From NCBI GenBank assembly GCA_963797095.1, contig CAWCNY010000002.1:768001-832000 (forward strand): a stretch of DNA of 64,000 nucleotides. Reading direction: 5' to 3'. This stretch comes from an uncultured Chloroflexia bacterium. GTDB taxonomy: Bacteria > Chloroflexota > Chloroflexia > QHBQ01 > JADMIH01. The number at the start of each line of letters is the position of its first letter. Within the stretch, counting starts at the first letter, position 1. The notes below the pieces were generated by a model. The model did no database searches. It was not told where the DNA came from and saw only the letters and a list, made by a program, of their open reading frames with translations. This document shows positions 4,301-60,244 of this stretch, piece by piece. A program made the translations under genes and the position numbers.

Positions 4301-4397
4301 TTGTGTTTGTAGTTCCTTTCCAGTGTCAAGCTTACCCTACATTATATATACAGACCCCTCTCCGCCAACAGGGTCGCGGGAAGTATCCTTTATCCCC

Positions 4398-6095: not shown

Positions 6096-6265
6096 CCTTA
6101 TATCCTTAGCCCAAATAGACTTATATCTAATAACTGGCCCATTTTTTAGGGCGGCTAGTCAGCCGCCCGTACTAATTATTAATTGCTTGTTAATTATAGC
6201 ACATCAACCCCATTCAACCACTCTATGCTTTCCCACTCCTCCAGAAAACGAACCAACAAAGAGAT

Positions 6266-6294
6266 TGTCATCCTGAGCGAAGCGAAGGATGACA
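6266..6294. repeat. Short extragenic palindrome (TGTCATCCTGAGCGAAGCGAAGGATGACA)
   Basis: 9-bp stem TGTCATCCT/AGGATGACA just downstream of hisS; resembles a widespread REP-like intergenic repeat. Confidence 0.5.
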
Positions 6295-6330
6295 GACCGG
6301 ACAGGGCAGCCTTCTGCCATATTTTCGTTA

Positions 6331-7695: not shown

Positions 7696-7763
7696 CGCTC
7701 ATCTTCCTCCCCAACTCTATAAGCCTGGACTCCCCTTAATTATATCCTAACCACACCACCACG

Positions 7764-8291
7764 GTGATAGACATGCAAGGCTGATGCAAAGTCGGTATCG
7801 GACACACCAGGTTTGGTTGCTGTCGCATACCACGGACATTGCTCAAGTGCGGGCGCTACTCGCAGGCGTCCTGCCCATACGCCATCAGCCATACGCCACC
7901 CCCATATAGTCCCGAAGGGACGGCAGAGAGTAACCCAGAGCGTAAGCCCTGTGGTAAGCCCAAGATGATGCCATAGCCCCGTAGGGGCGTAAGAACCAGC
8001 ACTCTGCTATACTATTGATGCAATGCTCTTACGTCCCTTCGGGACTATATGGGGGTGGCGTATGATCCACAGGGCTTGCGCCCTGGGCTACTTTCTTACG
8101 TCCCTTTGGGACTTTGGCTTGGGTGGCACACACCCGAATTCGCAGAGCTATACCGTCACTATGCTCAACAGCACAATCTACTGGTAAGCACCGGCTCCGA
8201 CTCGCACGGCCCACCTGACCCTCTACCGATAAAATACCCGGCATCCCTCAGAAGGAACCTTCTGGAGCGTTGCGGAGTGGCCGTAGAATAG
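7764..8291 (+). pseudogene. Remnant of a PHP-domain phosphoesterase gene disrupted by a REP cluster
   Basis: The C-terminal part ...NLLVSTGSDSHG... is a PHP terminal motif. Decayed N-terminal-like fragments lie upstream, and the middle is occupied by palindromic repeats. Confidence 0.5.
7890..8112. repeat. REP/BIME-like palindrome cluster
   Basis: Four hairpins (GTCCCGAAGGGAC, GCCCCGTAGGGGC, GTCCCTTCGGGAC, GTCCCTTTGGGAC). Perfect 33-bp inverted repeat 7890-7922/8032-8064; imperfect IR 7931-7954/8067-8090. Confidence 0.8.
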
Positions 8292-8374
8292 GATAAGGAT
8301 AGGATATCGCCCTCAATTCCACACCGAATCCACACGATCCACAGTCCGCTTCCCCCATCATATAATCGCCTTGT

Positions 8375-11300: not shown

Positions 11301-11575
11301 CCGCCGCGCCTTCGGGTACGCCCAATTTCAGCCTCATAATCAGCATCCCCGATGCCGATGAAGACCAGCCCGTGATCGACAGCGTAATAAGTCTCAAACG
11401 CCTCCTCGAAGAGTACCCCGGCCCCGACACCGTCACCATCAGGGTTCCCTATATCCGGGGCAGATGGACTTCCGCAAGCCTCTCCTGGGGTGTCGGCTAC
11501 AGCCACCAGCTCGAATCGCGCATCCGCCGCCTCCTAGGCGATGACGCTATAGCCGTGATCCAATTGGCAAGCTGA
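8375..11575 (+). CDS. Catalytically inactive DnaE (Pol III alpha)-like protein
   Basis: Colinear with DnaE: PHP, palm remnant (SLAYTLGVS..P; EYGPDRVA), PPHVNFS, HhH, LILAGACD, QLDLF, OB fold, C-terminal domain. Catalytic PDxD is replaced by PGVT and KxD by AIH. Confidence 0.85.
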   Translation: MSDFTYLFVHTHFSRAGGPASPSEWCKRALELGYTSIGMADRSPLSGWPAMHRAARQSGLGLVYGVEVDIVLPPINSPKTKAPIEPAAQGTLLLARSPEGARNLAHMASSAYAHWPSHETPIPWDALAAHHDGLFLILPGGDEAGAPQPIAGQDARKAEAWAAALKSAFGNSLYIGLPHSGRPGDTALAEAIASRAQSLDLPLVALPPARYLLSGDAPAYEALKVARFRAGWPREIANLPASTGSIASDRAGYDYLRSPDEALALYSRWPAAIESAAHISTEVARIDTWPFETPDTNHARASLLEIVEQRLSQLPEFVAPTELLTRIESELDRSSRWGVAGAWSALAALATHAQDAREPVPTGSPVGHAINSSLAYTLGVSTTTPADPPTSVQIESPPFPGVTLPSAGRSLLLNRLAEEYGPDRVAYAACALDIMPVQALAASAAVLAVDSNTVRSIILAAIDGGWQALANATGSDPIIPTLADLAIALKGAPISSVPDRDTALVSPRAIYAGSTLASWLPLLQPPVGASSPLPSWSPWSAESLASLGYPAIHLPTSQQLDALHAALRLALRYPVPGLALPPADAGPDALSAALHSQHPSAYFAGALDTAWRHGEAVSVAPLAAEAHKLGIKIEPPHVNFSLEHHTLQRDGNSWSILWGLAALPGWSPAATQSFIGARPPGGFPSLSAVVEAALSSGLDISHLRTLILAGACDTLGERPRDRHALLSALPSLFEWATSQATRGGPGGANQLDLFSAPATPPPLEEDLREDNAQTSFDAVPTAYSPYERYLRNRWERDKLGVTFTEADEMHALIAVLEDSGALRSRLTSTESINAKQIGASIHIVGILCEIAFLEGQDGDTLAVCSLQDPYGTLELVTFPPNYKRHTSLWVENTLVAVTARVQAHQDGSLYLLCEHLALFTAGATDESFSITIKTRAARGAAANKEASQTPKPASSARPDLKIVAAPPPEPRREPQPAAPSGTPNFSLIISIPDADEDQPVIDSVISLKRLLEEYPGPDTVTIRVPYIRGRWTSASLSWGVGYSHQLESRIRRLLGDDAIAVIQLAS

Positions 11576-11753
11576 TCTCCACCGGCGCATTCCGAAGATA
11601 CCGGCAACCTCTGCTTTCTCTACAAGGCAGCCCCTGCCCTCAATCGCGGGTTCACGGCTTTGTTTCCTTGCAGCGCCAAAGATAGGACCTCAGGCCGATG
11701 CTTGCCTTTTTGCTCCATGTTATCCTAATCCGACACCACACAAGGAGAATGCA

Positions 11754-13115
11754 TTGGCGAAAGACACATCCTCGGAGCAAGACCTACCTAAGAACCTGGG
11801 TGACGGATTAGTGATGCGTAGGGCCACCCTCGAAGACCGTGAGAGGGTCGCCGATTTCCACGCCAATACCCTCCTCGACATAGGGCAAAAAGGCCCCGAT
11901 GAGCCTATGCGCCGCTGGATGCTCGACATGATGAGTGGCGAGCATCCCACTCTCAGGGCCACCGACTTCATCATTGTAGAAGACACAACCACAGGCAAGG
12001 TTGTCTCCTCTATGTGCCTGATCTCGCAGACCTGGACCTACGATGGTATCCCTTTCAAGTTTGGGCAGCCCGAAATAGTCAGCACTGACCCTGCTTACCG
12101 CAGACGAGGCCTTGTGCGCGCCCAATTCAACGAGATTCACCGGTGGAGCGCGGAACGAGGTGAGTTGGTGCAAGGCATCACAGGCATACCCTGGTATTAC
12201 CGGCAGTTCGGCTACGAAATGGCCGTGAACCTCGGCGGCAGTCGCCAGGGTTACAGGCCCAATGTTCCCAGGCTCAAAGAAGGCGAGCAGGAGCCGTACA
12301 ACGTTCGCAAAGCCACCACCGATGACATACCCCTCATCATGGACATGTACAGGCAGGCGGCCTCGCGCTCCCTCATAGCTTCTGTTCGCGATGAGGCTAT
12401 CTGGCGCTACGACCTTGAAAAGCGCACACGGGAGAGTGGCTTTAGCATCGAGTTACGCATAATTGAGACTCTCGAAGGCAAGCCTGTGGGCGTGCTGGCG
12501 CATTCATGGCGCTTGTGGGGGCCGAGCTTGAACACCCACCTCTATGAGACCATACCCGGTATGCCTCTCCTGGCAACCACCCCCACTGTCCTGCGTTACC
12601 TGGATGCCACGGGAGTAGAGTATGCCAAGCGCCCCAGCACTGAAGATGAGCCGAAGGACTTCGGGATCATTTCTTTTGGCCTGGGCGCTCAACACCCCGT
12701 ATATGACACGATTCCAAACAGATTGCCCCGTGTCAATAAACCCTACGCCTGGTATATTCGCGTGCTCGACCTGCCAGCCTTCGTGAACCGCATCGCTCCT
12801 GCTCTCGAAAAGCGTCTTGCCGAATCGGCGCAGGCAGGCTACGCAGGCGAGCTGAAGATCAACTTGTTTCGCACAGGACTTCTCCTCAAGTTCCAGGAGG
12901 GAAGTCTATCGGTGGAAGCCTGGAAGCCAGACCGCGTCGAGGAGGGAGATGCAGCCTTCCCCGACCTAATTTTCCTGCAACTCCTTTTTGGCTACAGGTC
13001 GCTGGAAGAACTGAGGTATGCTTTCCCCGATTGCTCCGCGAACACCGACACCGGTCGTGCCCTCATGCCTATCCTCTTCCCCAGGAAAGACTCCCACGTT
13101 TGGGCCGGGGGCTGA
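11754..13115 (+). CDS. GNAT family acetyltransferase (Eis-like tandem GNAT)
   Basis: Acetyl-CoA motif VSTDPAYRRRGL, YYRQFGYE, second GNAT-like repeat. Confidence 0.8.
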   Translation: MAKDTSSEQDLPKNLGDGLVMRRATLEDRERVADFHANTLLDIGQKGPDEPMRRWMLDMMSGEHPTLRATDFIIVEDTTTGKVVSSMCLISQTWTYDGIPFKFGQPEIVSTDPAYRRRGLVRAQFNEIHRWSAERGELVQGITGIPWYYRQFGYEMAVNLGGSRQGYRPNVPRLKEGEQEPYNVRKATTDDIPLIMDMYRQAASRSLIASVRDEAIWRYDLEKRTRESGFSIELRIIETLEGKPVGVLAHSWRLWGPSLNTHLYETIPGMPLLATTPTVLRYLDATGVEYAKRPSTEDEPKDFGIISFGLGAQHPVYDTIPNRLPRVNKPYAWYIRVLDLPAFVNRIAPALEKRLAESAQAGYAGELKINLFRTGLLLKFQEGSLSVEAWKPDRVEEGDAAFPDLIFLQLLFGYRSLEELRYAFPDCSANTDTGRALMPILFPRKDSHVWAGG

Positions 13116-13126
13116 GCCTGCCAATA

Positions 13127-13183
13127 ACGAGTGACGAGTGACGAGTGACGAGTGACGAGTTGTTAGTTGTCACTCGTCATTGG
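13127..13183. repeat. Heptamer tandem repeat (ACGAGTG)~5 plus inverted copy
   Basis: Directly visible; the same unit occurs at 96-116 and 17044-17070, each just after a stop codon. Confidence 0.85.
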
Positions 13184-13458
13184 GCCGAAACCAGTACTAG
13201 CAGTCCTAGCCAACACTAGCGAGTACTCCTAATCTCCCCCCGGCCCGGATTCCGCTTTAATGCGCACTATTAGATAGTCCTATATGCCTAGGACGTACTA
13301 TCTCCCATGCATGAGTAGTACCTATGTCATAATCCCTTTTATTGACTCCTTTCTCTGCGCTTTGTTATAGTCAATATGACACGCTCCTGGTCAGTCGCGC
13401 ACTGCTGCTGCCATGTTCTACGCTAAACTCGTGGGGCGCGAACTCAGGATGGAGAAAT

Positions 13459-14253
13459 ATGGACAAAACACCGATAAAAGTTGTCATCGCCGATAGCCAC
13501 GATCTATTCCGCCAGGGTCTCTCCAGTCTGCTCGCTCGTCAGTCCGATATTCAGATCGTGGGTGAGGCCAAAGATGGTGCTGAGCTAATTAGCATGATGC
13601 ACGATCTGGAGCCTCAGGTCCTCCTCATGGAAATCTATATGAGAGGCGTGGATGGTCTGCAAACCGTTTACGATATCATGGCCGAATATCCCGACACCAC
13701 AGTCGCCATACTTACATCTTCCGAAGACGACAATGATGTGCTAACCGCCGTCAAAATGGGTGTGAAGGGTTATATACTCAAAAACAGCAGCCTGGACGAG
13801 CTTGTCCAGGCGGTCCAGGCGCTCTCATCGGGCGGCGCTTACTTCTCCAGCAGCATGTTCACCAAAGTGCTCCAGGAGTTCACCCACCTGGCCCGCAGAC
13901 GCGACCTCCAGGAAGCCAAGGGGATAGACGCCCTTACCGAGCGTGAGAAGGACGTGCTTCGCCTGGTTGCCAAAGGCTCCACCAACCGCGACATCGCGGA
14001 CGAACTGGTAATCACCGAGAACACCGTGAAAGTGCACCTGCGCAATATCCTGGATAAATTGCAGTTGCGTAACCGCCAGCAGGCTGCGGCCTACGCGGTC
14101 CAGGAAGGTCTCATTTCTCGCGTTCTCCCCACCAACCGGGGCTACAACGGCTACAGCAACACATCCTCGGCGGCTCTTGCCACCCCGCGTAGCGTCCCCA
14201 GCCACGATGAGATACGTGCTCGCCTCAGCGAGTACAAAATCCGCATCCGCTAG
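13459..14253 (+). CDS. NarL/LuxR family response regulator with atypical receiver (Asp->Glu)
   Basis: REC domain plus LuxR HTH (LTEREKDVL...TVKVHLRNI); the phosphoacceptor position reads LLMEI; GGAGA SD before ATG 13459. Confidence 0.9.
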   Translation: MDKTPIKVVIADSHDLFRQGLSSLLARQSDIQIVGEAKDGAELISMMHDLEPQVLLMEIYMRGVDGLQTVYDIMAEYPDTTVAILTSSEDDNDVLTAVKMGVKGYILKNSSLDELVQAVQALSSGGAYFSSSMFTKVLQEFTHLARRRDLQEAKGIDALTEREKDVLRLVAKGSTNRDIADELVITENTVKVHLRNILDKLQLRNRQQAAAYAVQEGLISRVLPTNRGYNGYSNTSSAALATPRSVPSHDEIRARLSEYKIRIR

Positions 14254-50212: not shown

Positions 50213-52609
50213 TCATGCGCCCCGCGCCACGTATTCCTGTTCCACAGGCTCCTTGCCATCCCACTCGGTGATGTGCCCGCAACGGATGCACTTCACCTTC
50301 TGTGGGCCTTCCTGCTTCTGCGTGCGCCCTACCACCGTCATGAGGCCGCCGCATTGCGGGCAGGGTAGAGGCACGGGCCTATCCCACGTAGAGAATTCAC
50401 AGTCGGGGTAGCGGCTGCACGAGTAAAAGATACGTCCCTTCTTGCTTTTCTTTTCGATCAACTGCCCTTCCCCGCACTGCGGACATTCCACCCCTGTGCT
50501 CACCACGATGGGGCGCGTGTATCTACACTTGGGGAAGCCTGAGCACGCTATGAACGGCCCGAACCTGCTCTCCCGTATCACAAGCTCGTGCCCCGACAGG
50601 GGACATAACTCCCCTATCTTCTCAGGCTCCGGCCTGGCGACCTCGATCCGGCCAACGCTCGTTTCGGCTGCTGCCAGCGCCCGTTCGAGCGGCCCGTAGA
50701 ACTCCGATATCACAGGCTGCCAGCGGCGGTCGCCCGATGCCACGTCGTCCAACTCCTCTTCCATATTAGAGGTGAAGCCGATATCCACTATGTCAGGGAA
50801 GTACTCTACCAGCAGATCGTTCACCGCGATCCCCAGGTCTGTCGGCAGGAATTTCTTCTCCTCCTTCACCACGTAGCCCCGGTCCTGTATGGTCGATAGG
50901 ATAGGCGCGTATGTAGATGGTCTGCCGATCCCTTGCTCCTCCAGCGTCTTGACCAGCGTGGCCTCCGTATACCGGGGTGGCGGTTGGGTGAAGTGCTGCT
51001 CAGGCCACAGCTTGAGCAGATCGAGCAACTCCCCTTCGGTCAGAGGCGGTAGGGCTGCCTGGTCCATCTCGTCCTCGGCGTCTCCGGCGTCGTGCCCCTC
51101 TCTGTACACGGATATGAACCCGGCAAACTTGATAACCGATCCGGTTGCCCTGAACGTATAGGGCCTTCGTCCCTCAGATTTTCCATTCTGGCCCTTGGCT
51201 TGCCGCCCATCGCCCGATGCCCACAGTTCATCGTCTGCCTTGCCTGCCCCCACATCCACCGTTGTCTGGTCGAATATGGCGTTAGCCATCTGCGATGCGA
51301 TGAACCTCTGCCAGATCAGCTTGTACAGGCGATACTGGTCCGACGAAAGATACTGCTTGATCCCATCCGGGTCTCGTCTCGCCAGCGTGGGGCGGACCGC
51401 CTCGTGCGCCTCCTGTGCGCGGGGGTTCTTGCGTGCATACACCGGCGGCGACCCAGGCACGAACTCTTTTCCAAAGCGCTCGGCGATTACCTCGCGTGCC
51501 TCTGCCTGTGCAACGCTCGCCACGTTGGTCGAGTCGGTCCTCATATACGTGATGAGTCCCGTGGACCCTTCTACTCCGATCTCTATCCCTTCGTACAACT
51601 GCTGCGCGATCAACATCGTCTTGCGCGCCGCGAAGTTAAACTTGCGTGATGCCTCTTGTTGGAGAGTAGATGTCGTGAAAGGCGGCGAAGGTCTCCGTTG
51701 CGCCTCGCGTTTCTTGACGCTCTCCACTACATATTCTGCGCTCTTGAGCGCGGTCATCACCCCATCCGCGTCCTCAGCGTTCTTCAGTTCGGGCTTCTTG
51801 CCCCTGATCAGCGCCAGTAGCGAATGGAATAAATCCTTCTTCTTGCCCGATGGGCGCTTGCTCAGGTCGGCCTCTATGCTCCAGTACTCTTCCGGTATAA
51901 ACGCATCGATCTCGCGCTCGCGCTCGACCACGAGGCGCACAGCCACGCTCTGCACCCTGCCGGCCGATAGCCCCCGCCGTACCTTCTTCCACAGCAGCGG
52001 CGACAGTTTGTAGCCGACCAGCCTGTCGAGCACTCTCCGTGCCTGTTGTGCGTCTACCATCCGCATATCGATCTCTCGCGGGCTGGATACAGCGGCCTGC
52101 ACCGCGCCCGGCGTGATTTCGTGGAACTCCACCCTGTACACCGGCTGCCCGCCGTTGCCCGCGCCCGTCACCTCGCGCACGTGCCACGCGATAGCCTCGC
52201 CCTCGCGGTCGGGGTCCGTCGCCAGGTATACTGCCCGCGCCGTTTGCACCCTCCCCTTGAGGTCCTTGACCGTCTTGCTCTTGTCTCGGGGTACCACGTA
52301 TTGAGGCGCGAATCCGTGCTCAACATCCACCCCCAGAGTCGACTTGGGGAGGTCGCGCACGTGCCCCATGCTCGCTTCTACAACGAAGTTGCGCCCTAAA
52401 TACTTCTTGATCGTCCTGGCCTTGGCGGGTGACTCCACGATCACGAGGTTGGTGCTCCCCCGTGTAACAGGCCCATTCCCCGACGCCCGTGTGGACCTCG
52501 CCGTGGTCGAGCGCGTGGTCGTGCTTTTGCCTTTAGAAGCTGCTGTGCTTCTGCTTTTACTTGTTGTTGTGGCACCTGTCGTGCCGCTGGTTTTTCTGGT
52601 GGTTGCCAT
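50213..52609 (-). CDS. topA: DNA topoisomerase I
   Basis: IVESPAK, ATDPDREGE, SAGRVQS, ITYMRTDS, GIGRPSTY, C-terminal zinc ribbons. Confidence 0.97.
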   Translation of the reverse strand: MATTRKTSGTTGATTTSKSRSTAASKGKSTTTRSTTARSTRASGNGPVTRGSTNLVIVESPAKARTIKKYLGRNFVVEASMGHVRDLPKSTLGVDVEHGFAPQYVVPRDKSKTVKDLKGRVQTARAVYLATDPDREGEAIAWHVREVTGAGNGGQPVYRVEFHEITPGAVQAAVSSPREIDMRMVDAQQARRVLDRLVGYKLSPLLWKKVRRGLSAGRVQSVAVRLVVEREREIDAFIPEEYWSIEADLSKRPSGKKKDLFHSLLALIRGKKPELKNAEDADGVMTALKSAEYVVESVKKREAQRRPSPPFTTSTLQQEASRKFNFAARKTMLIAQQLYEGIEIGVEGSTGLITYMRTDSTNVASVAQAEAREVIAERFGKEFVPGSPPVYARKNPRAQEAHEAVRPTLARRDPDGIKQYLSSDQYRLYKLIWQRFIASQMANAIFDQTTVDVGAGKADDELWASGDGRQAKGQNGKSEGRRPYTFRATGSVIKFAGFISVYREGHDAGDAEDEMDQAALPPLTEGELLDLLKLWPEQHFTQPPPRYTEATLVKTLEEQGIGRPSTYAPILSTIQDRGYVVKEEKKFLPTDLGIAVNDLLVEYFPDIVDIGFTSNMEEELDDVASGDRRWQPVISEFYGPLERALAAAETSVGRIEVARPEPEKIGELCPLSGHELVIRESRFGPFIACSGFPKCRYTRPIVVSTGVECPQCGEGQLIEKKSKKGRIFYSCSRYPDCEFSTWDRPVPLPCPQCGGLMTVVGRTQKQEGPQKVKCIRCGHITEWDGKEPVEQEYVARGA

Positions 52610-52800
52610 TCTTTCTTGTTGTTATCCTTATTCTGTTACAGCCCAAATTGATGTGCAAGGGTAATCTTACGCACATTATTACACACCTGTCAAGCCGCAA
52701 AGCATGCAATATCCGGAATTTGCATTCGTAATTGCAAACTCATAATCTGGTGCAGCTACGTTTGTTTTCACACCATTCTCGATGCCGTTGGCGAATTGGG

Positions 52801-54378
52801 TTAGGCAGCAGCCAGGGCGGCGAAGGGTGATATGCGGGTAGTCGCCCTCGGTTTCTCACTCCACCACGCCGATAGTCGCCCCACATTTATCGCTACCGCT
52901 GTCAGTACATGCTGTAGATGTGTCTTTCGCTCACCCATGTACCTCGCCCGCCGCATCTCATGCCCCACCACTGCCTCTGATAGCGTTCCTTCGATATCTG
53001 CTCGCCCAGCATACACCGCTTTGAACTCTTGCGTCTGCTGCCTCATGCGCGCTCGCTCCAGAGCCTCATGCTCCGCTTGCCGGTGCAGCGTCAACTCCCG
53101 AGCCCAACTCTTGCGTCTGGTACACCGCTTCCGCACCTCACACACCCTGCACTCTGCTGCGTTGAACTGCACTTGGATGGTTGGTTTGCCCCTCGACCCT
53201 ATCTCCTCGTGCCAGTGGCGGCTGATGCGCCCTTGCGGGCAAATCGCTCGCTTGCCCGCCCAATCGATTGTGAAGGTCGTGATGTCGAAGGCCTCCGGGT
53301 CTAGAGCTTGCCAGCTTACATCGGGGCGTACCGGCCCCACCACATTCACCCCATATTCCTGCTTACTGCTTACCAGCACTTCGGCGGACGCATAGGTCGT
53401 ATCCACCAGATGCTCCCCTGGCAACCTCCCATCCTCATCTCCATCTGCGGCTGCAGCCAGGTCCCGGTGAATAAGGGACAGTGCCATGCTGTCATCCTCG
53501 GTGGCTGGGCAAGTGTGCACATGGGTTATCAAGTGCGGCATATCTGGCTCGCATGTTTCGGTAAGATGCGCTTTGTAGCCCACCCATGATACGCTGCGCT
53601 TGCTGCTGTAGCGTGCCTCTGTATCATACGGGGAAGTGATCCGCTCCGCTGCCATTGGGGTCAGTGTATCCTGGCTATTCTGGCTATTCTGGCTATTCTG
53701 GCTATTCTGGCTATCAGAAGTACCCGGTTCCTCGCCTAACTTGGTCCTGGTCTTGGGCTTGGCCTTGGCCGTGCCCGTATCTGTTGCTGTAACTACGCTG
53801 CTCGTATCCGTTCTTGTGCCTGCGCCTGCGCCTGTGGTCGTAATCGTTCGCAAATGTGCCTGCCCATCGGTGACGATATACTGCTGTTGCCACACCTGCC
53901 GCAGAACCTTCACGGCCTCCAAGTCACGCAGGTGGGGTGGAGCATCAGCAGCAGGGTGCTCAACTAAGGCAAGCAGGTGTAACCCATTCGCTCCTATCTG
54001 CTCGGCCAACACAGTGCGCTTGGCCTCCTCCTTGGGCAGGCGATATTCATCAATGAGGCGGCTGTAGCGGTCAAACCATTCGGGTGGAGTGTTGACACGC
54101 AGCCAACCGGGTGCCTCTTTGGCCAGGGCATTGAGGGCATATTGGAGGGTGCGTCCCACCAGTTCGACCCGGTTGAGGCTACGCACTGCCGCTAGAATGT
54201 GAGTGGAGTCGGTGCGCTGGCGACCTCTTGTCTTGAGTAGGCCACGCTCCTGTAAGTGCTCAAGCAGAGTATCAAGCAACAGGTGTTCAGCGTGGTTGGC
54301 GAGCAGGCGGTCGCGGAACTCGGAGAGTACGGAGAAATCGAAGCCCGGGTCGGTGAGTTGGAGGCCAAGGAGATACTT
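52801..54378 (-). CDS. IS1182 transposase, 3' exon
   Basis: Begins KYLLGLQLTDPGFDFSVLSEFR; QRTDSTH, GYKAH, VDTTY, IEGTLS. Confidence 0.88.
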   Translation of the reverse strand, partial: KYLLGLQLTDPGFDFSVLSEFRDRLLANHAEHLLLDTLLEHLQERGLLKTRGRQRTDSTHILAAVRSLNRVELVGRTLQYALNALAKEAPGWLRVNTPPEWFDRYSRLIDEYRLPKEEAKRTVLAEQIGANGLHLLALVEHPAADAPPHLRDLEAVKVLRQVWQQQYIVTDGQAHLRTITTTGAGAGTRTDTSSVVTATDTGTAKAKPKTRTKLGEEPGTSDSQNSQNSQNSQNSQDTLTPMAAERITSPYDTEARYSSKRSVSWVGYKAHLTETCEPDMPHLITHVHTCPATEDDSMALSLIHRDLAAAADGDEDGRLPGEHLVDTTYASAEVLVSSKQEYGVNVVGPVRPDVSWQALDPEAFDITTFTIDWAGKRAICPQGRISRHWHEEIGSRGKPTIQVQFNAAECRVCEVRKRCTRRKSWARELTLHRQAEHEALERARMRQQTQEFKAVYAGRADIEGTLSEAVVGHEMRRARYMGERKTHLQHVLTAVAINVGRLSAWWSEKPRATTRISPFAALAAA

Positions 54379-54452
54379 ATCGAGTAAGGGAGAGCGGGTC
54401 GCCCCGCCTCCCTCCTCACAGAACCGGACAAGACCGTCGCCGATCATCCGGC

Positions 54453-55304
54453 TCAGGCTTCCACCGACTTTACTGCGGGTCTTCTACCAAATGTTGCGCG
54501 GTGGCAGACTTCGTGTAAGATGCTGAGGTTTTCCTCCTCATCTGTTCCACCGTCTGCTACCGATTGCTCATGGTGAATATGAATACGCTCTTCATTGAAC
54601 AAGTGCATTCGGCACAGGGGACATCGCCAGTGCTGCTTTGCGGCTACCCGGTATAGCTTTGACCCCACAGCAAAATAGCTTTTGCCATATCTTGTCTGCC
54701 GTGCCGCCCAGTATTCGCCCAGCGTTGGGTCGTCTGGGGATGCTGCGCCTTTGACTTTGATGTGGCGAGTAATTGGCGTCTGCCCTATCCGATACAGATA
54801 GGTCTTCGTCATCTTACCGTGCCGGTTCTTTGTCTTGGCGTAGAAGACCCAGTTGTTCCCGCCTACTCTCGTGAAGTAACGCGGAAGTACCCACCGTGGA
54901 CCCTTACCCGGGTGTCGCCGTCTCGCCCATCGGATAAGTAGTAACACTAACCGGTGGCTGAAGGTGGCGAACATCTTCTTGCTCACCCCATGCTTGTAGT
55001 AGTTCGCCCAACCCCTCAGAATCGGGTTTAGCACGTCAATCACGTCGTCGGGACCAACGTTCGGATGCGTGACCAGCCACTGCTTGATTTCACGCAGTTT
55101 GGTCTGCACCTTTTCCTTCTGGGGCTTGATTAGGCATTTCGTGCCGTAGCGACGGATGTTGAAACCCAAGAAGTCGAAACCATCTGCAATGTTGCGGATA
55201 TGGGTTTTCTCGGTGTTGAGTTCGAGTCCGCGCTCGGCCAGCCAGGCTACCACATGAGGTTGAATAGCCTCGATTTCCTCCCTCGTGGCTGCTGTTATGA
55301 TGAA
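54453..55304 (-). CDS. ltrA: Outer intron-encoded RT/maturase/HNH, 3' part
   Basis: FIIT...GFDFLGF, maturase LNPILRGWANYY, CPLC..HH..GG...NL..LH..CH. Confidence 0.9.
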   Translation of the reverse strand, partial: FIITAATREEIEAIQPHVVAWLAERGLELNTEKTHIRNIADGFDFLGFNIRRYGTKCLIKPQKEKVQTKLREIKQWLVTHPNVGPDDVIDVLNPILRGWANYYKHGVSKKMFATFSHRLVLLLIRWARRRHPGKGPRWVLPRYFTRVGGNNWVFYAKTKNRHGKMTKTYLYRIGQTPITRHIKVKGAASPDDPTLGEYWAARQTRYGKSYFAVGSKLYRVAAKQHWRCPLCRMHLFNEERIHIHHEQSVADGGTDEEENLSILHEVCHRATFGRRPAVKSVEA

Positions 55305-57811
55305 GTGGAGTGGGCGGCCAGCGAGGTGCTGCTTGCGCAGCTCTTTTCTGTCCGCCTCTCCCCGAACCGGGCTTACGCCTTTCGGAGTACCCGGCTCTCC
55401 AGTGTTTTCCTTCTCGCGGCTTTCACGGCAGCAGTTTGAGTGTTGCGACCAGCATGAATGCTATCGTGGCACTCGCGACAGACCACCAGCGTCTTGCGCT
55501 TGCGAGCTGCCATCACCTGCATCCAGAAAGGCGGTTCTGCGCGTCCTTTGGTCCGTAGATCTTTGAGTGCTCGTACATGATGCACCTCGATGTTTTCTCG
55601 TGAACCACAAAGCTCACAAGCTTGTGCCAAGAGGCGTCGTTCGAGTTCCGCTCTCGGTCCGCTGATTTGTAGGGGCGCGTCGTTCAGTATTGCCTTGGAG
55701 TTGCGTGCGAGTGAAATACCGCCCCACCGCGCTATCAACGGTTTTCTTCCTTTATCGCCCTTATCACGATCGCCCTCATCACGCTCTACCCTGACTTCGA
55801 GGATTGCACGTGTTCCCTGATCTGTCCGTACTAAGGTGTGGTATCGCTTGTAGATAGATCGGACACTGATCTTGAGTTTTGAGGCCAGTGTCTGTGCCAG
55901 GGAGCGTTCCATTAGCCATTTCAGTTGGTTGAGTTTGTGAAGGTTGAAGGCCAGTCGATAGTATTCCACGAGACCCCGGTACTCCTGCTGGTATTGTGCC
56001 ACGATACTGAAGACAGCATCGTGTTCAAGTTCCGGTCGGTGGATCGGTTTGGCGTGGCGCAGATAGCGTTTGCATTTCACTTTCACAACCTCTGCTGGTA
56101 CTTTCAGTCCGATCCCGCCGTTGATGCTGCGGTGACCTCGGCGATCCAGCTTGTGGTCGTTATTGAGCACCACGATATCATAGCCCAGGAAATGCGCAGC
56201 TTTGGTCCGCGCATGGGTAATCAGCGTCTTTTCCTCAGAGAGTTCCAACTTGAGATCCTCTCGTAAGAAGTCCCGGATTGCAGACTTGATTTCCTGGGCT
56301 TCTTCTCGTGGGCCGCTGAAACCGAGTAGCCAATCATCGGCGTAACGACAGTAACGCAGGCGTCGGTAGTTGGGGTCGTGTGTGTCCAAGGAGGGGACCT
56401 GCTGCATCAGACGACGCATTTTGCAGGCCTCTTTCTTGTCACCATGTTCCTTCAATTGCCGAGCAAGCTGTTGTCGCCGTTGCCATTCAGGATTGAGTCT
56501 ACGACGGTTTCCGCACGTGTACCTGGGAAGCAGTGTCTTCTCGACAAACTGGTCCAACTTGTCCATGTAGATGTTCGAAAGAACGGGGCTGAGCACGGCA
56601 CCTTGTGGGCTTCCACTCAGGGTGCAGTGATAACGCCATTCTTCCAGGTATCCGGCTTGCAGGAGGCGTTCGATCAAGCGTAAGAAGCGATTGTCGAAGA
56701 TCTTCTCGCGTAGGATTGATATCAGGACTGTGTGGTCCAGAGTGTCGAAGCACGCTCTGATATCGCCTTCCACCCACCATTTTGTGCCTACCCACTTATG
56801 TTGGATCTCGCTTAGCGCGGTGTGACACCCACGTTGAGGGCGAAAGCCGTGTGAGGCCGGGCTGAATTGCGGTTCGTAATATGCCTGTAGGATAAGGCGT
56901 ATCACTTCTTGCAACAGCTTATCCGACCAAGAAGGGATTCCTAGCCCACGCCTTTTGGTCGAGTTTCTCTTGGCGATGTACACGCGTCGTACTGGCGTCC
57001 ATCGATATCGTTCCTGTCGTAGTGCACCGATGATGGCTTCGATCTTGGCCAGCGACATCCCATCCACAGTTTCGTCTGTTACGCCAGGTGTCATAGCCCC
57101 GTTATTGCGGTAGATATGCCCATAAGCGAGTAGATACAAGTCTGGGTTGAACAGTTGCCGGTACACGTCCTCCAATGGCAAGCCCTTCTTGCCGCGTTCA
57201 TGGATGATCCCCAGCACAGTTTCGGCGTTTCGCATCTCGCGTACCTCCCTGATTGGGTCTCACAACACCTGCCACCCTTCCCCATTGGCAACTTATCTTC
57301 TTTGCAAGGCATTGCCATGTTGCTATGTTGCTATGTTGCTATGTTGCCATGTAGACGGCTTTCCCGTCCTCGGAGTAATATGGTGGCTCCGTCGCCATGG
57401 GGCTCGCGCCCTGTAGGCGATCCCACATTCCCAAGGTTATGGACGTATCGAGCGTGACGTAGGTGCCTGTTCCGTCTCCTTGAGTCAGGTCGTTCCTGAC
57501 CGCCCATTGTGCGAAAGGTTCAGGCGGCGACGACTTAACCGCCCTATCACAATGGCTCCGCCAATAGATGCTATGGTCGGAGAATATTCGCTTGCATCGC
57601 TGGAGACTAAGGTTTGGGCAGTTTGGCTCTCACCATATCACGCGGGTCTTGCAGAACGATACCCTAAGCATCTTCAAGTATCTTCCGCTTCAGCAGCATG
57701 CTACTGTTCCCTTCAGCTTTCGCTTCCAGGTAAGCTGTTGACCCGGAGGTCTTGTCTTCCGTACCTCCCCTTTCTGCGAAAGGAATCCATTATCTTGGTT
57801 ATGTGGCGCAC
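55305..57811 (-). mobile_element. Inner group II intron (ML/IIA-like)
   Basis: 5' GTGCG at 57811; domain V GAGAGCCGGGTACTCCGAAAGGCGTAAGCCCGGTTC; 3' end CCCACTCCAC. EBS1 GTCGTC at 57529-57534. Confidence 0.92.
55373..57235 (-). CDS. ltrA: Inner intron-encoded RT/maturase with HNH-like C-terminus, intact
   Basis: TPGV..ETVDG, SHGFRP, PQGAVLSP, RYADD, FLGY, CELCG..EVHH..CRECH. Confidence 0.95.
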   Translation of the reverse strand: MRNAETVLGIIHERGKKGLPLEDVYRQLFNPDLYLLAYGHIYRNNGAMTPGVTDETVDGMSLAKIEAIIGALRQERYRWTPVRRVYIAKRNSTKRRGLGIPSWSDKLLQEVIRLILQAYYEPQFSPASHGFRPQRGCHTALSEIQHKWVGTKWWVEGDIRACFDTLDHTVLISILREKIFDNRFLRLIERLLQAGYLEEWRYHCTLSGSPQGAVLSPVLSNIYMDKLDQFVEKTLLPRYTCGNRRRLNPEWQRRQQLARQLKEHGDKKEACKMRRLMQQVPSLDTHDPNYRRLRYCRYADDWLLGFSGPREEAQEIKSAIRDFLREDLKLELSEEKTLITHARTKAAHFLGYDIVVLNNDHKLDRRGHRSINGGIGLKVPAEVVKVKCKRYLRHAKPIHRPELEHDAVFSIVAQYQQEYRGLVEYYRLAFNLHKLNQLKWLMERSLAQTLASKLKISVRSIYKRYHTLVRTDQGTRAILEVRVERDEGDRDKGDKGRKPLIARWGGISLARNSKAILNDAPLQISGPRAELERRLLAQACELCGSRENIEVHHVRALKDLRTKGRAEPPFWMQVMAARKRKTLVVCRECHDSIHAGRNTQTAAVKAARRKTLESRVLRKA

Positions 57812-58723
57812 GTCGTCCGCAAAACGGATGTAACCGTAGCGTGGATTAGCCTGTTTATGTACACATCCCACCTGTTTGCCGCGCTTGTTGGTGTAAGTTC
57901 GCTGGTTAGTCCATTGACCAAGCCAGCGTTCCATACCGTCCAAGGCAATGTTGGCGAGTAATGGTGAGACGACAGAGCCTTGTGAGGTACCACTCTCAGT
58001 GGCGTGGAAGATCTCGGCCTCTACATAGCCTGCCTTCAGCCATGCTTCTATCCACTCGCGTCCCGGCGTTTGGCCAATGGCGTCGAGGATATATTCCTGA
58101 CTGATATTGTCGAACGCACCCCGGATATCGGCGTCGAGCACAAAGCTGTGTCCGTTTGCGCCCTTAAACCAGTTCCAGCATTGCACGATGGCATCATGAC
58201 AATTGCGGCCCGGACGAAAGCCATAGCTGTTCGGCTCGAATTGGGCCTCCCAACTTGGTTCCAGTGCGTTCTTGATAACTGCCTGCGCGATGCGGTCTTT
58301 GAGAGTTTGGATGCCGATCGGCCTTTGTTTGCCATTGGCCTTAGGTATATATATCCGCCGGGCTGGTTTGACCTGTCGTGGTTTGTACTCCGGCATCTCG
58401 CGGATCACTTGCGTCCTGGTTTTGGCGGTAAGAGCAGTCTGACCATCAATGCCAGCCGTTTTCTTGCCGTGATTGTCCATGGTCACTCTTCGCGTTGACA
58501 GTAGCAGGTTTGCGTAGCTGCGCATCATCAGCTTCTTCAGGCTGCGCACCTGATTCCACTGACCCGCTGCGGTCGCACGATAAATCCTTTGTCTCAGGTT
58601 CCTGACCCGATTGTTAACAATAGCCCAGTCAATAGCGTCCCAATCAATGGGAGTGCCTTGTTTGGGTATCTCGCTGAAAGCAGATCCTGGCGTTCCGATG
58701 TCAGAAGTGACTCTATCTTGCAC
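57812..58723 (-). CDS. ltrA: Outer intron-encoded RT, 5' part (ends at FADD)
   Basis: RVT_N (WDAIDW...RIYRA), SYGFRPGR, DADIRGAFD, QGSVVSPLLAN, RFADD. Confidence 0.9.
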
Positions 58724-59331
58724 GTCAGTTTGGTTCCTTCACATTAGTTCTATCGTCAGAAGCTAGCTGGAAGTCAGCCGCCTTTCGGCGTGGGGCAAAT
58801 CTTGAAAAGAACCCCTATCCCGCGCATTACTGCGGGCCTTCGCTTGCTCCAGCGTCTTTTACCCGATGAGTAATTCTGCCTTCCTTACGGTCGGCTTACT
58901 CCGCATGCCAAGTGGAGAACTCAACGGGCTTACCGTAGTTCCAGATGTTGAGATGCGTCCAGGGAAGGTCCTGCCTATGCTCCGGTGGGAGTGTGTCCTG
59001 TCGTCGAGCAGCGACTGGATTTGCTCGACCACCCACTTACCATTTTGGTGAGAGTGTCTCAGCCTTATTGCACTCTTGCCGAATCACGAAGCTTTAGATG
59101 GCAGTTCACTTGCGTTGACCTATCTGACTTCCCCTTGCGCATGACCAGGTTTAGGCTACCAGTCAGCGGCGCTTGCGTGGCCTGCATTCCACCAGGTTCA
59201 TTGCTTACTACTGGAGTGGCCGGGGTCAGAGACCCTTTTACGTGGGGACAGTGGGACAGAATCCACTGGGAGAGGGCTAACTCTCCACTCGATGGAGTTA
59301 CCTCCTTACATCTAGCTTAGCTACGTCGCAC

Positions 59332-59597
59332 CCAGTCAATCCGGCTGCGAACAGCGTCGGCAGCCTGGCGGTCGGTGAGGTTCTCTATGAACTGCATGAT
59401 CAGCACAAGAGCCAGTCGGGTAGGGCAATGGGCAGGCTGGCCACGTTGGGGGAAGAGTTGAGCAAACAGGGGGTCGGAGAAGATGGACCGAGCTGCTCAT
59501 AGATGCGCATGTACAGGTTGCCTTTTGGAAAAGCAGCCCGCGCCACACGTTCAGTCTCTTCGGGGATCTGGTATACGATCAACGGGTGCAGGCACAT
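59332..59597 (-). CDS. IS1182 transposase, 5' exon (1-nt frameshift near 59487)
   Basis: MCLHP..IPEETERVARAAFPKG, then in the shifted frame FSDPLFAQLFPQRGQP...DRQAADAVRSRIDW. Confidence 0.85.
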
Positions 59598-59935
59598 GGC
59601 AAGTTCCTCCTCTCGCACTCTCTCAGCGGACGGGACAAGTGGACACAGCGTACAAGGAACGGGTGAATAGGTGTGACCACAATTGTACAGATGCAAGGAC
59701 GCTGTGAAAAGGCGAGTTCCCGGACTGCTCTTTGGGAGGACAAACCTTCTGGGCGACAATTCGCCAACGGCATCATTCTCCAAGTATTGAGAAGTCCACT
59801 TCTTGCCCTCAAGCCTCTTATAGCAAAACAATATTGCGTAAAAATTCACCCATTTGGGTACTTGAAATACGAACATAGGTTCTATATACTCTGTGTACAA
59901 GCGTAGTGCTGCCATCACAAAAGAGAGAATTTGCC

Positions 59936-60244
59936 ATGGGAAGGCGAAGAATCAAACGCATCAAATCTATATCGCCGCCAACAGAGATCGACATCGGGAT
60001 GCTGACCCTGCGGCAGATCGAGGTCCTGAGCCTCATTGCCCTCGGCAAAAGCAACAAAGAGATCGCCCAGGCCCTCTCCGTGACCCCCAGCACCGTCAAA
60101 TCTCACATCACCAGGCTGCTCCATATATGCGGCAAACGCACCCGCACCGACCTCGCTGTGCTCTGGACCGAGATAATGCACAAACCAGGCGACAGGGACC
60201 AAGCCTCCGAAGATAATGATTACGGGCCTTACGCCGTTGGCTAG
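59936..60244 (+). CDS. Small LuxR/GerE-type HTH regulator
   Basis: LTLRQIEVLSLIALGKSNKEIAQAL.V...TVKSH. Confidence 0.85.
   Translation: MGRRRIKRIKSISPPTEIDIGMLTLRQIEVLSLIALGKSNKEIAQALSVTPSTVKSHITRLLHICGKRTRTDLAVLWTEIMHKPGDRDQASEDNDYGPYAVG

What the first reader, a model, noticed from the sequence alone, without database searches (positions are those of the whole stretch)
52775..59780. Three-layer nest: IS1182 interrupted by a group II intron that is itself interrupted by a second group II intron
Seen: an IS with perfect 18-bp IRs and a 6-bp TSD. Its transposase is split between codons at RIDW|KYLLG by intron 1 (59331-54379). Intron 1's RT is split between codons at RFADD|FIIT by intron 2 (57811-55305). 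Both junctions rejoin in frame and both introns have 5' GTGCG, domain V and domain VI. Inference: expression is a splicing cascade in which intron 2 must splice to make intron 1's maturase, and intron 1 must splice to make the transposase. The 7-kb IS could also carry both introns as cargo. Twintrons are known, but a two-class twintron inside an IS with intact ends is unusual.
Basis: partly seen in the sequence, partly recalled or inferred. Interest (0 to 1): 0.75.

Follow-up and report, generated by a model that had tools for sequence, protein, structure and literature searches.

The report
Intron inside intron inside transposon
A jumping gene has been invaded by a self-splicing intron that was then invaded by a second, unrelated intron specialised in attacking other introns; the nest is real, but the jumping gene at the bottom of it is already broken.

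Summary

- **The IS.** An IS1182-family IS lies at 52781-59774 (-), with perfect 18-bp IRs and a GAGAAT duplication.
- **Intron I1.** The IS is split at RIDW|KYLLG by a 4,953-nt insert, I1 (59331-54379).
- **Intron I2.** I1's reverse transcriptase is split at RFADD|FIIT by I2 (57811-55305, 2,507 nt).
- **Empty sites.** Intron-less IS relatives in sister genomes join the exons exactly at the predicted I1 site. One metagenome contig lacks exactly the 2,507 nt of I2.
- **Different lineages.** I2's protein is LtrA-like (IIA/ML type). I1's is T.el4h-like (IIB/CL type).

New points:
1. The transposase carries a 1-nt deletion in exon 1, so the splicing cascade would end in a broken product.
2. The I1+I2 pair has a second, about 99.9% identical copy inside a different IS1182 relative. 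An I1 fragment sits in a third. Spread was therefore by retrohoming, not as IS cargo.
3. I2 belongs to a lineage that homes into the (Y/F)ADD active-site codons of other introns' RTs. It is found here, in a sister genome and in five cyanobacterial loci.
4. I2's exon-binding sites covary with their targets, including an EBS2 change that matches I1's Phe codon.

Each principle is known; the combination and the mixed-class YADD-homing lineage look new. Splicing could not be tested because no RNA data were listed.

The parts
52775..52780 (.). Target-site duplication GAGAAT, one copy
   Evidence: Read directly. The same hexamer lies at 59775-59780.
59775..59780 (.). Target-site duplication GAGAAT, second copy
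52781..52798 (.). Terminal inverted repeat of the IS (right end on the IS's own strand)
   Evidence: pair I3: 18 nt, 100% complementary. Homology to relatives ends here, at query position 7000.
59757..59774 (.). Terminal inverted repeat of the IS (left end on the IS's own strand)
   Evidence: The identical IR heads the 84%-identical C4 copy. Homology to relatives begins at query position 6/7.
59332..59756 (-). IS exon 1. The transposase ATG is at 59597-59595, preceded by GAGGAGGA. A 1-nt deletion lies between 59488 and 59487. The start-codon frame stops at TGA 59402-59400. The frame that joins exon 2 is open only from about 59487.
   Evidence: Pfam DUF772 positions 1-38 match 59332-59487.
57812..59331 (-). 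Intron 1, 5' segment: 5' GUGCGAC, ribozyme domains I-III and the N-terminal 304 codons of its RT (58723-57812). The candidate EBS1, CCAGUCG, lies at 59012-59018 (intron nt 314-320).
   Evidence: RVT_N and RVT_1 1-155 match. TIGR04416 3-215 matches. EBS1 pairs with exon TGACTGG and lies in an 11-nt hairpin loop.
55305..57811 (-). Intron 2 (2,507 nt): 5' GUGCGCC, EBS2 GCGAA at 57587-57591 (nt 221-225), EBS1 GUCGUC at 57529-57534 (nt 278-283), a 620-aa RT/maturase/HNH protein at 57235-55376, and domains V/VI at 55399-55305.
   Evidence: A contig in run X3 skips exactly 55305-57811.
54379..55304 (-). Intron 1, 3' segment: the C-terminal 283 codons of its RT/maturase/HNH (55304-54456) and domains V/VI (54456-54379), with a bulged A 7 nt from the 3' end.
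52799..54378 (-). IS exon 2: transposase body of 525 codons (54378-52804), stop at 52803-52801. It contains a 9-nt tandem repeat that encodes SQNSQNSQNSQ.
   Evidence: NF033551 IS1182 scores 274.2 bits against a cut-off of 270. DDE_Tnp_1_6 and DUF772 39-71 match. The repeat is family D1.

Best explanation
The locus is a genuine three-layer nest built by successive site-specific invasions.

1. An IS1182-family IS, 2,041 bp without its inserts, transposed into the spacer upstream of topA and made a 6-bp duplication.
2. I1 retrohomed into the DUF772-coding part of the transposase. I1 is a 2,446-nt T.el4h-like (IIB/CL-type) group II intron that encodes RT, maturase and HNH.
3. I2 retrohomed into I1's RT gene directly after the FADD catalytic-motif codons. 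I2 is a 2,507-nt LtrA-like (IIA/ML-type) intron with its own intact RT/maturase/HNH protein. It could have entered before or after I1 arrived at this site.

I2 belongs to a lineage whose homing site is the (Y/F)ADD|F codons of other introns' RTs. Its EBS2, EBS1 and delta pair with positions -12..-8, -6..-1 and +1 of that site.

Inferred, not shown: I2 must splice before I1's RT/maturase can be translated, and I1 must splice before the transposase reading frame is rejoined. In this copy the rejoined frame still carries a 1-nt deletion. The IS is therefore most likely a dead 'safe haven', and the introns are the live parasites.
For: Boundaries:
- Exact adjacency of query positions 449|5403 occurs in G001:C701, G001:C234 and G013:C191. 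Adjacency is inferred in G024:C123 and G001:C627.
- The last two were confirmed as single continuous protein alignments.
- An X3 contig (817 nt, 35 other letters) joins 55304 to 57812 with 255 nt or more on the shorter side.

Identity of the parts. LtrA matches I2's protein at E 5.6e-121 over residues 24-593. Chain 6me0_C matches I1's N-terminal part at E 6.9e-61.

Ribozyme parts: RF00029 scores above its cut-off for both introns. Both DV/DVI units fold with z -4.6 and -5.15, with 0 of 200 shuffles as good, and both have a bulged A at -7.

Recent mobility:
- The C3 copy of I1+I2 differs at 3 real positions in about 4.9 kb.
- It lies in a different IS1182-type gene at the same |KYLL site.
- The C4 copy joins an 84%-identical exon 1 to I1 nt 1-666 at the same junction.

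I2's homing specificity:
- (Y/F)ADD| junctions occur in the window, the C3 copy, I2' (C3:115k, and C1:492k by its 3' side only) and G013.
- They also occur in 5 of 39 genome-contig loci. These are the 5 full-length matches at 70% identity or more.

Covariation in 8 members:
- EBS1 position 1 with target -1: G-C five times, A-T twice, G.U once.
- EBS2 position 4 with target -11: U-A seven times, and A-U in the window's I2, matching TTT (Phe) in place of TAY (Tyr).
- EBS2 position 3 with target -10: G-C three times, G.U four times, A-U once.
- Target +1 is T in 7 of 7 junctions that could be read.

Frameshift. The frame is continuous in C4, G024, G001 and G035.
Against: - No RNA run holds the locus, so no splice junction has been seen.
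- The 1-nt deletion rests on one assembly and was not covered by the laid contigs. An assembly error cannot be excluded.
- I1's EBS2 assignment (nt 247-254) is doubtful. Four of the 6 differences in the C4 copy fall in it although the exon is identical, and part of it is paired in the fold.
- Two partial loci at 70% identity or more (L045, L058) showed no (Y)ADD junction.
- More distant I2 relatives sit in other targets: IS3-type and ISL3-type transposases, an ssb-like gene, and a DNMLKI| site. RT-homing is therefore a sub-lineage trait.
- I1 has FADD, not YADD. Its activity is assumed.
Confidence: 0.8

Rival explanations
1. One reading: a working expression cascade in which I2 splices, then I1 splices, then an active transposase is made, and the 7-kb IS moves with both introns as cargo.
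For: Both junctions restore the frame. The IRs and the duplication are intact. Both intron proteins are intact.
Against: A 1-nt deletion in exon 1 separates the first 38 codons from the rest. The five relatives checked read through in one frame. I saw no canonical slippery heptamer in the overlap when reading the sequence. The genome holds no second copy of this IS. The intron pair's other copy lies in a different IS.
Confidence: 0.07
2. Composite mobility: I1 with unspliced I2 inside moves as one 4,953-nt retroelement. The two copies at C2 and C3 would then come from one composite homing event, and not from I2 re-invading each new I1 copy.
For: Both I1 copies that reach the site carry I2, 2 of 2. 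Differences are equally rare in the I1 part (2) and the I2 part (1). Mohr et al. 2010 name composite retromobility as one of two routes (passage read).
Against: I1's RT can only be translated from RNA from which I2 has been removed, so the composite would need that protein to act in trans. In T. elongatus the evidence favoured separate mobility. An I2-less I1 relative exists as DNA. With three differences the data cannot decide.
Confidence: 0.35
3. Fossil nest: all three layers are inactive remnants and nothing splices or moves any more.
For: The C3 and C4 copies are plainly wrecked by further IS insertions and by truncation. The transposase here is broken. I1 has FADD. No expression data exist.
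Against: Both intron proteins are full-length without stops. The ribozyme termini and DV/DVI are intact. The copies are 99.9% identical. I2's EBS2 is matched to I1's own codon.
Confidence: 0.12
4. Assembly artefact: repeats were joined wrongly and the nest does not exist as drawn.
For: I1 and I2 are repeated at 99% identity or more elsewhere in the genome. No reads of the source strain were available.
Against: The two flanks belong together: perfect IRs, matching duplication, one transposase frame and continuous profile coordinates. The same I1|I2 junctions recur at C3, and the same IS|I1 junctions recur at C4 (5' side) and C3 (3' side) in different surroundings. The contig is 1.37 Mb long.
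Confidence: 0.02

Closest known systems
Thermosynechococcus elongatus twintrons (TeI3 inside TeI4) and introns targeted to IS elements (Mohr, Ghanem & Lambowitz 2010, PMC2882425; passages read)
   Same: [quoted passage not shown] The inner intron interrupts the outer intron's ORF. Proliferation by composite or by separate mobility is discussed. I1's protein is nearest to the T.el4h-type maturase.
   Different: There the inner intron is ORF-less, belongs to the same IIB1 family, and sits between two start codons, so the outer protein can still be made without splicing. Here the inner intron is autonomous, belongs to another class (LtrA-like), and cuts the RT after its catalytic motif, so the outer protein strictly needs inner splicing. 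That paper describes no IS > intron > intron nest in the passages I read.
Methanosarcina acetivorans nested introns (Dai & Zimmerly 2003). Only the title and the review's summary in PMC4424553 were seen; the paper itself is not held.
   Same: Repeated site-specific homing of group II introns into the sequences or ORFs of other group II introns, giving a perpetual homing site.
   Different: An archaeal case, with related introns nesting in each other and no coding flanking exons. I could not see which ORF position is targeted there.
Ll.LtrB / LtrA of Lactococcus lactis (PDB 5g2x and others)
   Same: I2's protein aligns end to end with LtrA (E 5.6e-121) and has the Intron_maturas2 and AI2M-like HNH domains. 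The target geometry, IBS2 -12..-8, IBS1 -6..-1 and delta' +1, is as I recall it for Ll.LtrB.
   Different: Ll.LtrB sits in a relaxase gene (recalled), whereas I2 sits in another intron's RT. The geometry for Ll.LtrB is recalled and was not checked in a call.
RmInt1 in ISRm2011-2 of Sinorhizobium meliloti (recalled; no paper read)
   Same: An intron whose natural homing site lies inside an IS transposase gene, as I1's does in IS1182-type genes. Here that is 3 loci in this genome plus one in G035.
   Different: A different intron class and IS family, and not a twintron.
Porphyridium purpureum plastid twintrons (Perrineau et al. 2015, PMC4476101; passages read)
   Same: One inner intron is found nested in two different outer introns at the same domain IV site.
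   Different: A plastid case in which inner and outer introns derive from the same element, and the outer ORFs are remnants.

Membership tests
IS1182 family insertion sequence | DDE transposase that matches the family model above its curated cut-off | tested here: met
   NF033551 scores 274.2 bits against a cut-off of 270 with exon 2 alone. DDE_Tnp_1_6 scores E 6e-27, and DUF772 is split 1-38|39-71 over the two exons.
IS1182 family insertion sequence | Terminal inverted repeats and a target-site duplication | tested here: met
   18-nt perfect IRs and GAGAAT on both sides. The homology limits in relatives coincide with the IRs. The family's usual duplication length was not checked.
IS1182 family insertion sequence | Uninterrupted transposase frame (autonomy, not membership) | tested here: not met
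   A 1-nt deletion lies between 59488 and 59487 relative to C4. The frame is continuous in C4, C6, G024, G001 and G035.
Group II intron (I1, outer) | 5' GUGYG, domain V and domain VI with a bulged A | tested here: met
   GUGCG at 59331. RF00029 scores 47.3 bits against 40. The fold has z -5.15 and an unpaired A 7 nt from the 3' end.
Group II intron (I1, outer) | RT plus maturase protein encoded in the intron | tested here: met
   Only after I2 is removed: RVT_N, RVT_1, GIIM and HNH match, and TIGR04416 runs 3-215|216-353. The joined frame is 587 aa without stops.
Group II intron (I1, outer) | EBS-IBS pairing with the flanking exon | tested here: inconclusive
   EBS1 CCAGUCG pairs with TGACTGG (6 Watson-Crick pairs and 1 G.U) and lies in a hairpin loop. 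EBS2 is doubtful. No covariation set was available.
Group II intron (I1, outer) | Precise unoccupied site in homologues | tested here: met
   Exons are adjacent at query positions 449|5403 in 3 contigs exactly and in 2 more by inference. Protein alignments are continuous. A weak X3 joint has a side of 27 nt.
Group II intron, LtrA-like IIA/ML type (I2, inner) | 5' GUGYG, domains V and VI, and a protein of the ML type | tested here: met
   GUGCG at 57811. RF00029 scores 54.5 bits. LtrA matches at E 5.6e-121 over the full length. Intron_maturas2 and AI2M-like HNH match. That ML goes with IIA is stated in PMC2882425. A full IIA secondary structure was not modelled.
Group II intron, LtrA-like IIA/ML type (I2, inner) | EBS1, EBS2 and delta pair with the target, supported by covariation | tested here: met
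   In 8 of 8 members all EBS1 positions can pair. Compensatory changes occur at EBS1 position 1 (twice), EBS2 position 3 (once) and EBS2 position 4 (once). Target +1 is T in 7 of 7. The loops are unpaired in the fold.
Group II intron, LtrA-like IIA/ML type (I2, inner) | Precise unoccupied site | tested here: met
   An X3 contig skips exactly 2,507 nt, 55305-57811. Uninterrupted I1-like RTs at C2:711091-712702 and C1:430284-428503 align across residue 304|305.
Twintron | One intron lies wholly inside another, and each has its own complete ends | tested here: met
Twintron | Sequential splicing, inner before outer | not testable with these tools
   No RNA holder was listed.

The most novel reading that the evidence does not exclude
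I2-type introns form a cross-phylum lineage of 'hyperparasites of introns'. They are autonomous LtrA-like group II introns whose homing site is the codons of the RT catalytic motif (Y/F)ADD of chloroplast-like-class introns. The host intron cannot mutate that site away without killing its own RT. The parasite follows host variation by single-base changes in EBS1 and EBS2, as in the U-to-A change that matches I1's Phe codon here. It thereby makes the host intron's protein, and so its mobility, dependent on the parasite's splicing.
Probability: 0.5. Interest if true: 0.6.

Novelty: new variant of a known kind. Interest (0 to 1): 0.45.

Why it matters
The nest shows parasitism among selfish elements three layers deep, with exact, testable junctions.

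The more general point is the I2 lineage. It is an intron that targets the one stretch of another intron's gene that cannot change, the RT active-site codons, and it tracks the remaining wobble and Tyr/Phe variation through its guide sequences. This is a natural example of retargeting by EBS changes, which is the principle behind targetrons. It also offers a tractable system for asking two questions: whether twintrons move as composites or separately, and whether an inner intron controls an outer intron's mobility.

For genome annotation, such nests hide three genes that gene callers report as fragments.

Tried and rejected
- **RNA evidence.** No RNA holder was listed for 52700-59850, so splicing could not be examined.
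- **Empty site for the IS itself.** The left flank (topA side) matches relatives only up to about 75 nt short of the IS, and the right flank has no match in the five loci tried. The outcome is inconclusive.
- **Bridging contigs of run X1.** Records 5 and 8 cross the I1|I2 and IS|I1 5' junctions. They cannot be assigned to this copy as opposed to the C3 and C4 copies. Record 8 carries the C4-type base at I1 nt 63. I did not use them as support.
- **First EBS listing.** The listing with G-U pairs allowed was too noisy for I2's EBS2. My first candidates (nt 157-166 and 216-221) were dropped in favour of nt 221-225 after the family alignment.
- **Alternative target for the C4 variant of I1 nt 247-254.** The search gave only scattered chance matches.
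- **The 'six twintron pairs'.** My early reading of the domain V census was wrong for C6. There the I2-like element is an ORF-less copy of about 730 nt inside an IS3-type transposase.
- **Programmed frameshifting.** I considered it as a rescue of the transposase and rejected it. I saw no slippery heptamer when reading, and the relatives are in frame.
- **Literature.** Searches found no report of an ML-in-CL twintron at the YADD site or of an IS > intron > intron nest. Dai & Zimmerly 2003 is not held, and supplements and the Zimmerly intron database could not be consulted, so prior description cannot be excluded.
- **Earlier notes of this scan.** Nothing was found.
- **Taxon.** The taxon of the genome was not established.

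Full report
**1. The observation**

- The window lies at G000:C2:768001-832000.
- On the minus strand, an element is bounded by perfect 18-nt inverted repeats (59774-59757 and 52798-52781). They are the only 100% pair among 16 pairs in 8.5 kb.
- It is flanked by GAGAAT on both sides.
- Rfam's group II domain V/VI model hits twice above its gathering score of 40 bits, at 55305-55399 (54.5 bits) and at 54379-54456 (47.3 bits), both on the minus strand.
- GTGCG starts at 59331 and at 57811.
- Removing 57811-55305 joins RFADD to FIIT. Removing 59331-54379 joins RIDW to KYLLG.

**2. The boundaries are confirmed by profiles and by empty sites**

Profile coordinates continue across both junctions.

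| Profile | Before the junction | After the junction |
|---|---|---|
| DUF772 | 1-38 | 39-71 |
| RVT_1 | 1-155 | 157-205 |
| TIGR04416 | 3-215 | 216-353 |

I searched the 7,006-nt element against 41 genomes, the own genome included. In the query, exon 1 is positions 1-449 and exon 2 starts at 5403.

- Intron-less IS relatives at 66-74% identity place position 449 directly next to 5403. The adjacency is exact in G001:C701 (717|718), G001:C234 and G013:C191 (1822|1821). It is inferred from the offsets in G024:C123 and G001:C627.
- The last two give single continuous protein alignments across the site. So does an IS1182-type gene of the own genome at C6:206276-205599.
- Homology starts at query position 6/7 and ends at 7000, which are the IR ends.

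For the inner intron:

- A metagenome contig of run X3 (817 nt, 35 other letters) joins 55304 to 57812. It skips exactly 2,507 nt, with 255 nt or more on the shorter side. An I2-less form of I1 therefore exists as DNA.
- Uninterrupted I1-like RTs in the own genome (C2:711091-712702 and C1:430284-428503) also align across residue 304|305.
- A second X3 joint links 59332 to a diverged AAGTAT... exon, but one side is only 27 nt, so it is weak.

**3. What the parts are**

- **The IS.** Exon 2 alone passes NCBIfam's IS1182 model, 274.2 bits against 270. Without its inserts the IS is 2,041 bp.
- **I1.** After I2 is removed, I1 encodes 587 aa with RVT_N, RVT_1, GIIM and HNH. Its best solved relative is chain 6me0_C at E 6.9e-61. 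I recall that chain as the T.el4h maturase but did not verify it. The T. elongatus introns are IIB1 (PMC2882425).
- **I2.** It encodes an intact 620-aa protein with RVT_1, Intron_maturas2 and AI2M-like HNH. This protein aligns with LtrA over residues 24-593 at E 5.6e-121. ML-type proteins go with IIA RNAs (PMC2882425).
- The 'two-class' guess is therefore supported.
- Both DV/DVI units fold far better than shuffles (z -4.6 and -5.15, 0 of 200 shuffles as good). Both show an unpaired A 7 nt from the 3' splice site.

**4.

(a) The transposase is broken.
- The ATG at 59597 opens a frame that stops at 59400.
- The frame that joins exon 2 is open only from about 59487.
- Aligned with the 84%-identical copy on C4, the window lacks one base between 59488 and 59487.
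- C4, C6, G024, G001 and G035 read through in one frame.
- The cascade would therefore end in a 65-codon product. An assembly error at that base cannot be excluded, because the laid contigs do not cover it.

(b) The intron pair has moved by retrohoming.
- C3:566597-573007 holds I1+I2 again. It differs at I1 nt 117 and 387 and at I2 nt 1317. Two further mismatches, at nt 995 and 997, lie at the edge of an IS insertion there.
- Its 3' exon is another IS1182-type gene (KYLLCLELTDPGFDH...), about 46% identical in protein.
- That copy is wrecked. An IS3-type element replaces I1's first 27 nt. An IS4-type element sits in I1's RT. Another IS cuts the host transposase.
- C4 holds exon 1 plus I1 nt 1-666, followed by an unrelated gene.
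- G035, which belongs to another family of the same order, has an I1-like 3' fragment in front of an IS1182-type exon 2.
- I1's home is therefore the DUF772 codons of IS1182-type transposases.
- This IS has no other copy in the genome, so nothing supports 'cargo'.

(c) I2 belongs to a lineage that homes into other introns' RTs.
- In the own genome, a diverged pair is built the same way. I1' is 42% and I2' 66.5% identical in protein. They lie at C3:115051-119358 and, truncated at the 5' end, at C1:492590-495757. The junction is RYADD|FVVMHE.
- G013, a species of the same genus, has RYADD|FVVLDE.
- Of the 39 loci found with I2's protein in species genomes, 30 gave a GTGCG candidate for the 5' end and 9 gave none.
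- Five show ...RYADD|GTGCGCC: Brasilonema, two Stigonema, and two cyanobacterial MAGs. These are the five full-length matches at 70% identity or more.
- An I1-like RT aligns up to residue 304 before the intron and from residue 305 after it in L023, L046 and L053. In L052 it aligns on the 3' side only. In L050 the alignment is less clean.
- Two partial loci at 70% identity or more (L045, L058) showed no such junction.
- More distant relatives sit elsewhere:
  - an IS3-type transposase (C6);
  - ISL3-type transposases at DRFHL| (G035, G037);
  - an ssb-like gene (G034);
  - a DNMLKI| site in 8 loci, mostly Clostridia-type genomes and MAGs.

**5. Mechanistic signature**

I aligned eight YADD-homing members together with their exons.

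- **EBS1.** In the window it is nt 278-283, GUCGUC, in the loop of a GC hairpin. It pairs with target positions -6..-1 in 8 of 8 members.
  - Its first base is G opposite C in five members, A opposite T in two independent members (I2' and L053), and G opposite T in one.
- **EBS2.** In the window it is nt 221-225.
  - It reads GCGUA in six relatives and GCAUA in L046, opposite TAYGC, which is the Tyr codon plus GC.
  - It reads GCGAA in the window's I2, opposite TTTGC. That is exactly the Phe codon of I1's unusual FADD.
  - L046's GCAUA lies opposite TATGC.
- **Position +1.** The base 5' of EBS1 is A, and target +1 is T in 7 of 7 junctions that could be read.
- I2 is therefore matched to I1, not merely lodged in it.
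- **I1.** EBS1 (nt 314-320, CCAGUCG) pairs with TGACTGG and lies in an 11-nt hairpin loop. Its EBS2 remains uncertain.

**6. How it most likely works**

Shown: the anatomy, the exact boundaries, intact ribozyme ends and intron proteins, recent duplication by homing, and guide-target matching.

Inferred:
- I2's protein is translated from the precursor and helps I2 to splice.
- Only then can I1's RT/maturase be translated and I1 be spliced.
- The rejoined transposase message is still frameshifted.
- The IS is thus a dead landing pad.
- Whether I1+I2 moves as a composite or I2 re-invades each new I1 copy cannot be decided from three differences. Mohr et al. discuss both routes.

**7. Comparison with what is known**

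- Twintrons in bacteria, homing into IS elements and homing into other introns are all established (PMC2882425; PMC4424553; PMC4476101).
- What differs here:
  - The inner intron is autonomous and of another class than the outer one.
  - Its site is the RT catalytic-motif codons, so the outer protein strictly depends on inner splicing.
  - The same arrangement recurs in cyanobacteria and in this genus.
  - The guide sequences covary with the targets.
  - The nest has three clean layers.
- Searches found no description of this. Supplements, the intron database and Dai & Zimmerly 2003 could not be seen.

**8. Verdict**

The finding is real and correctly delimited. It is a new variant of a known kind, of moderate interest.

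Noticed in passing
L001 (G000:C3:562000-577000), about 3200-13800: A pile-up of mobile elements. An IS1182-type gene holds I1+I2. An IS3-type element replaces I1's first 27 nt. An IS4-type element (473-aa ORF) sits inside I1's RT. Another IS (402-aa ORF) cuts the host transposase. That makes at least five elements in about 10 kb.
   Followed up: partly
L021 (G000:C1:27500-33500): Another twintron with a different site. An I1-like RT is split between residues 205 and 206 (FDN|IDQAALLEKL, RT motif 3 region) by an intron whose protein is 41% identical to I2's. The outer intron has an uninterrupted sibling at C1:430284-428405.
   Followed up: partly
L020 (G000:C6:299500-305500): An ORF-less I2-like element of about 730 nt sits in an IS3-type transposase at LDWHSR|YIVSWE. 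A second group II domain V lies about 1 kb downstream and is identical to one at C4:713784-713881.
   Followed up: partly
Whole genome G000: The genome has 22 group II domain V hits, 19 of them above the cut-off. Ten of them belong to five twintron loci, so the genome is unusually rich in nested introns.
   Followed up: partly
window 57312-57351: Four tandem copies of an 8-nt unit (TTGCYATG on the + strand) lie in I2's 5' RNA part, at intron nt 461-500. Metagenome relatives replace or skip 94 nt here (57251-57346), and word depth in run X4 peaks at 222 in this bin. It appears to be a variable region of the ribozyme.
   Followed up: no
window 53667-53714: A 9-nt tandem repeat inside the transposase encodes SQNSQNSQNSQ within a low-complexity stretch rich in Thr, Ala and Lys. 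The C3 locus has a similar SAASAA... repeat in another transposase.
   Followed up: no
window 52609-52780 and 59781-59906: The 7-kb nest lies 166 nt upstream of the topoisomerase I start codon (52609, minus strand). It separates that gene from a divergently oriented small LuxR/GerE-type regulator gene (59906-60244). It may have displaced the topA promoter region.
   Followed up: no
G000:C4:273992-274657 versus window 59078-59085: Four of the 6 differences between the C4 fragment of I1 and the window copy fall in 8 nt (I1 nt 247-254), although the upstream exon is identical. This may be a variable guide loop or a relic of another target.
   Followed up: partly
L016 (G034:C522:5200-9800): A more distant I2-family intron interrupts an ssb-like gene at GLNKCL|FIGRLGSDPEMR. 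This is a likely housekeeping target, in contrast to the mobile-element targets elsewhere.
   Followed up: no
L030, L031, L032, L034, L036, L039, L044, L056: Eight LtrA-like introns, mostly in Clostridia-type genomes and MAGs, share the 5' exon ending ...DNMLKI|GTGCGCT. This points to another conserved homing site. The host gene was not identified.
   Followed up: no
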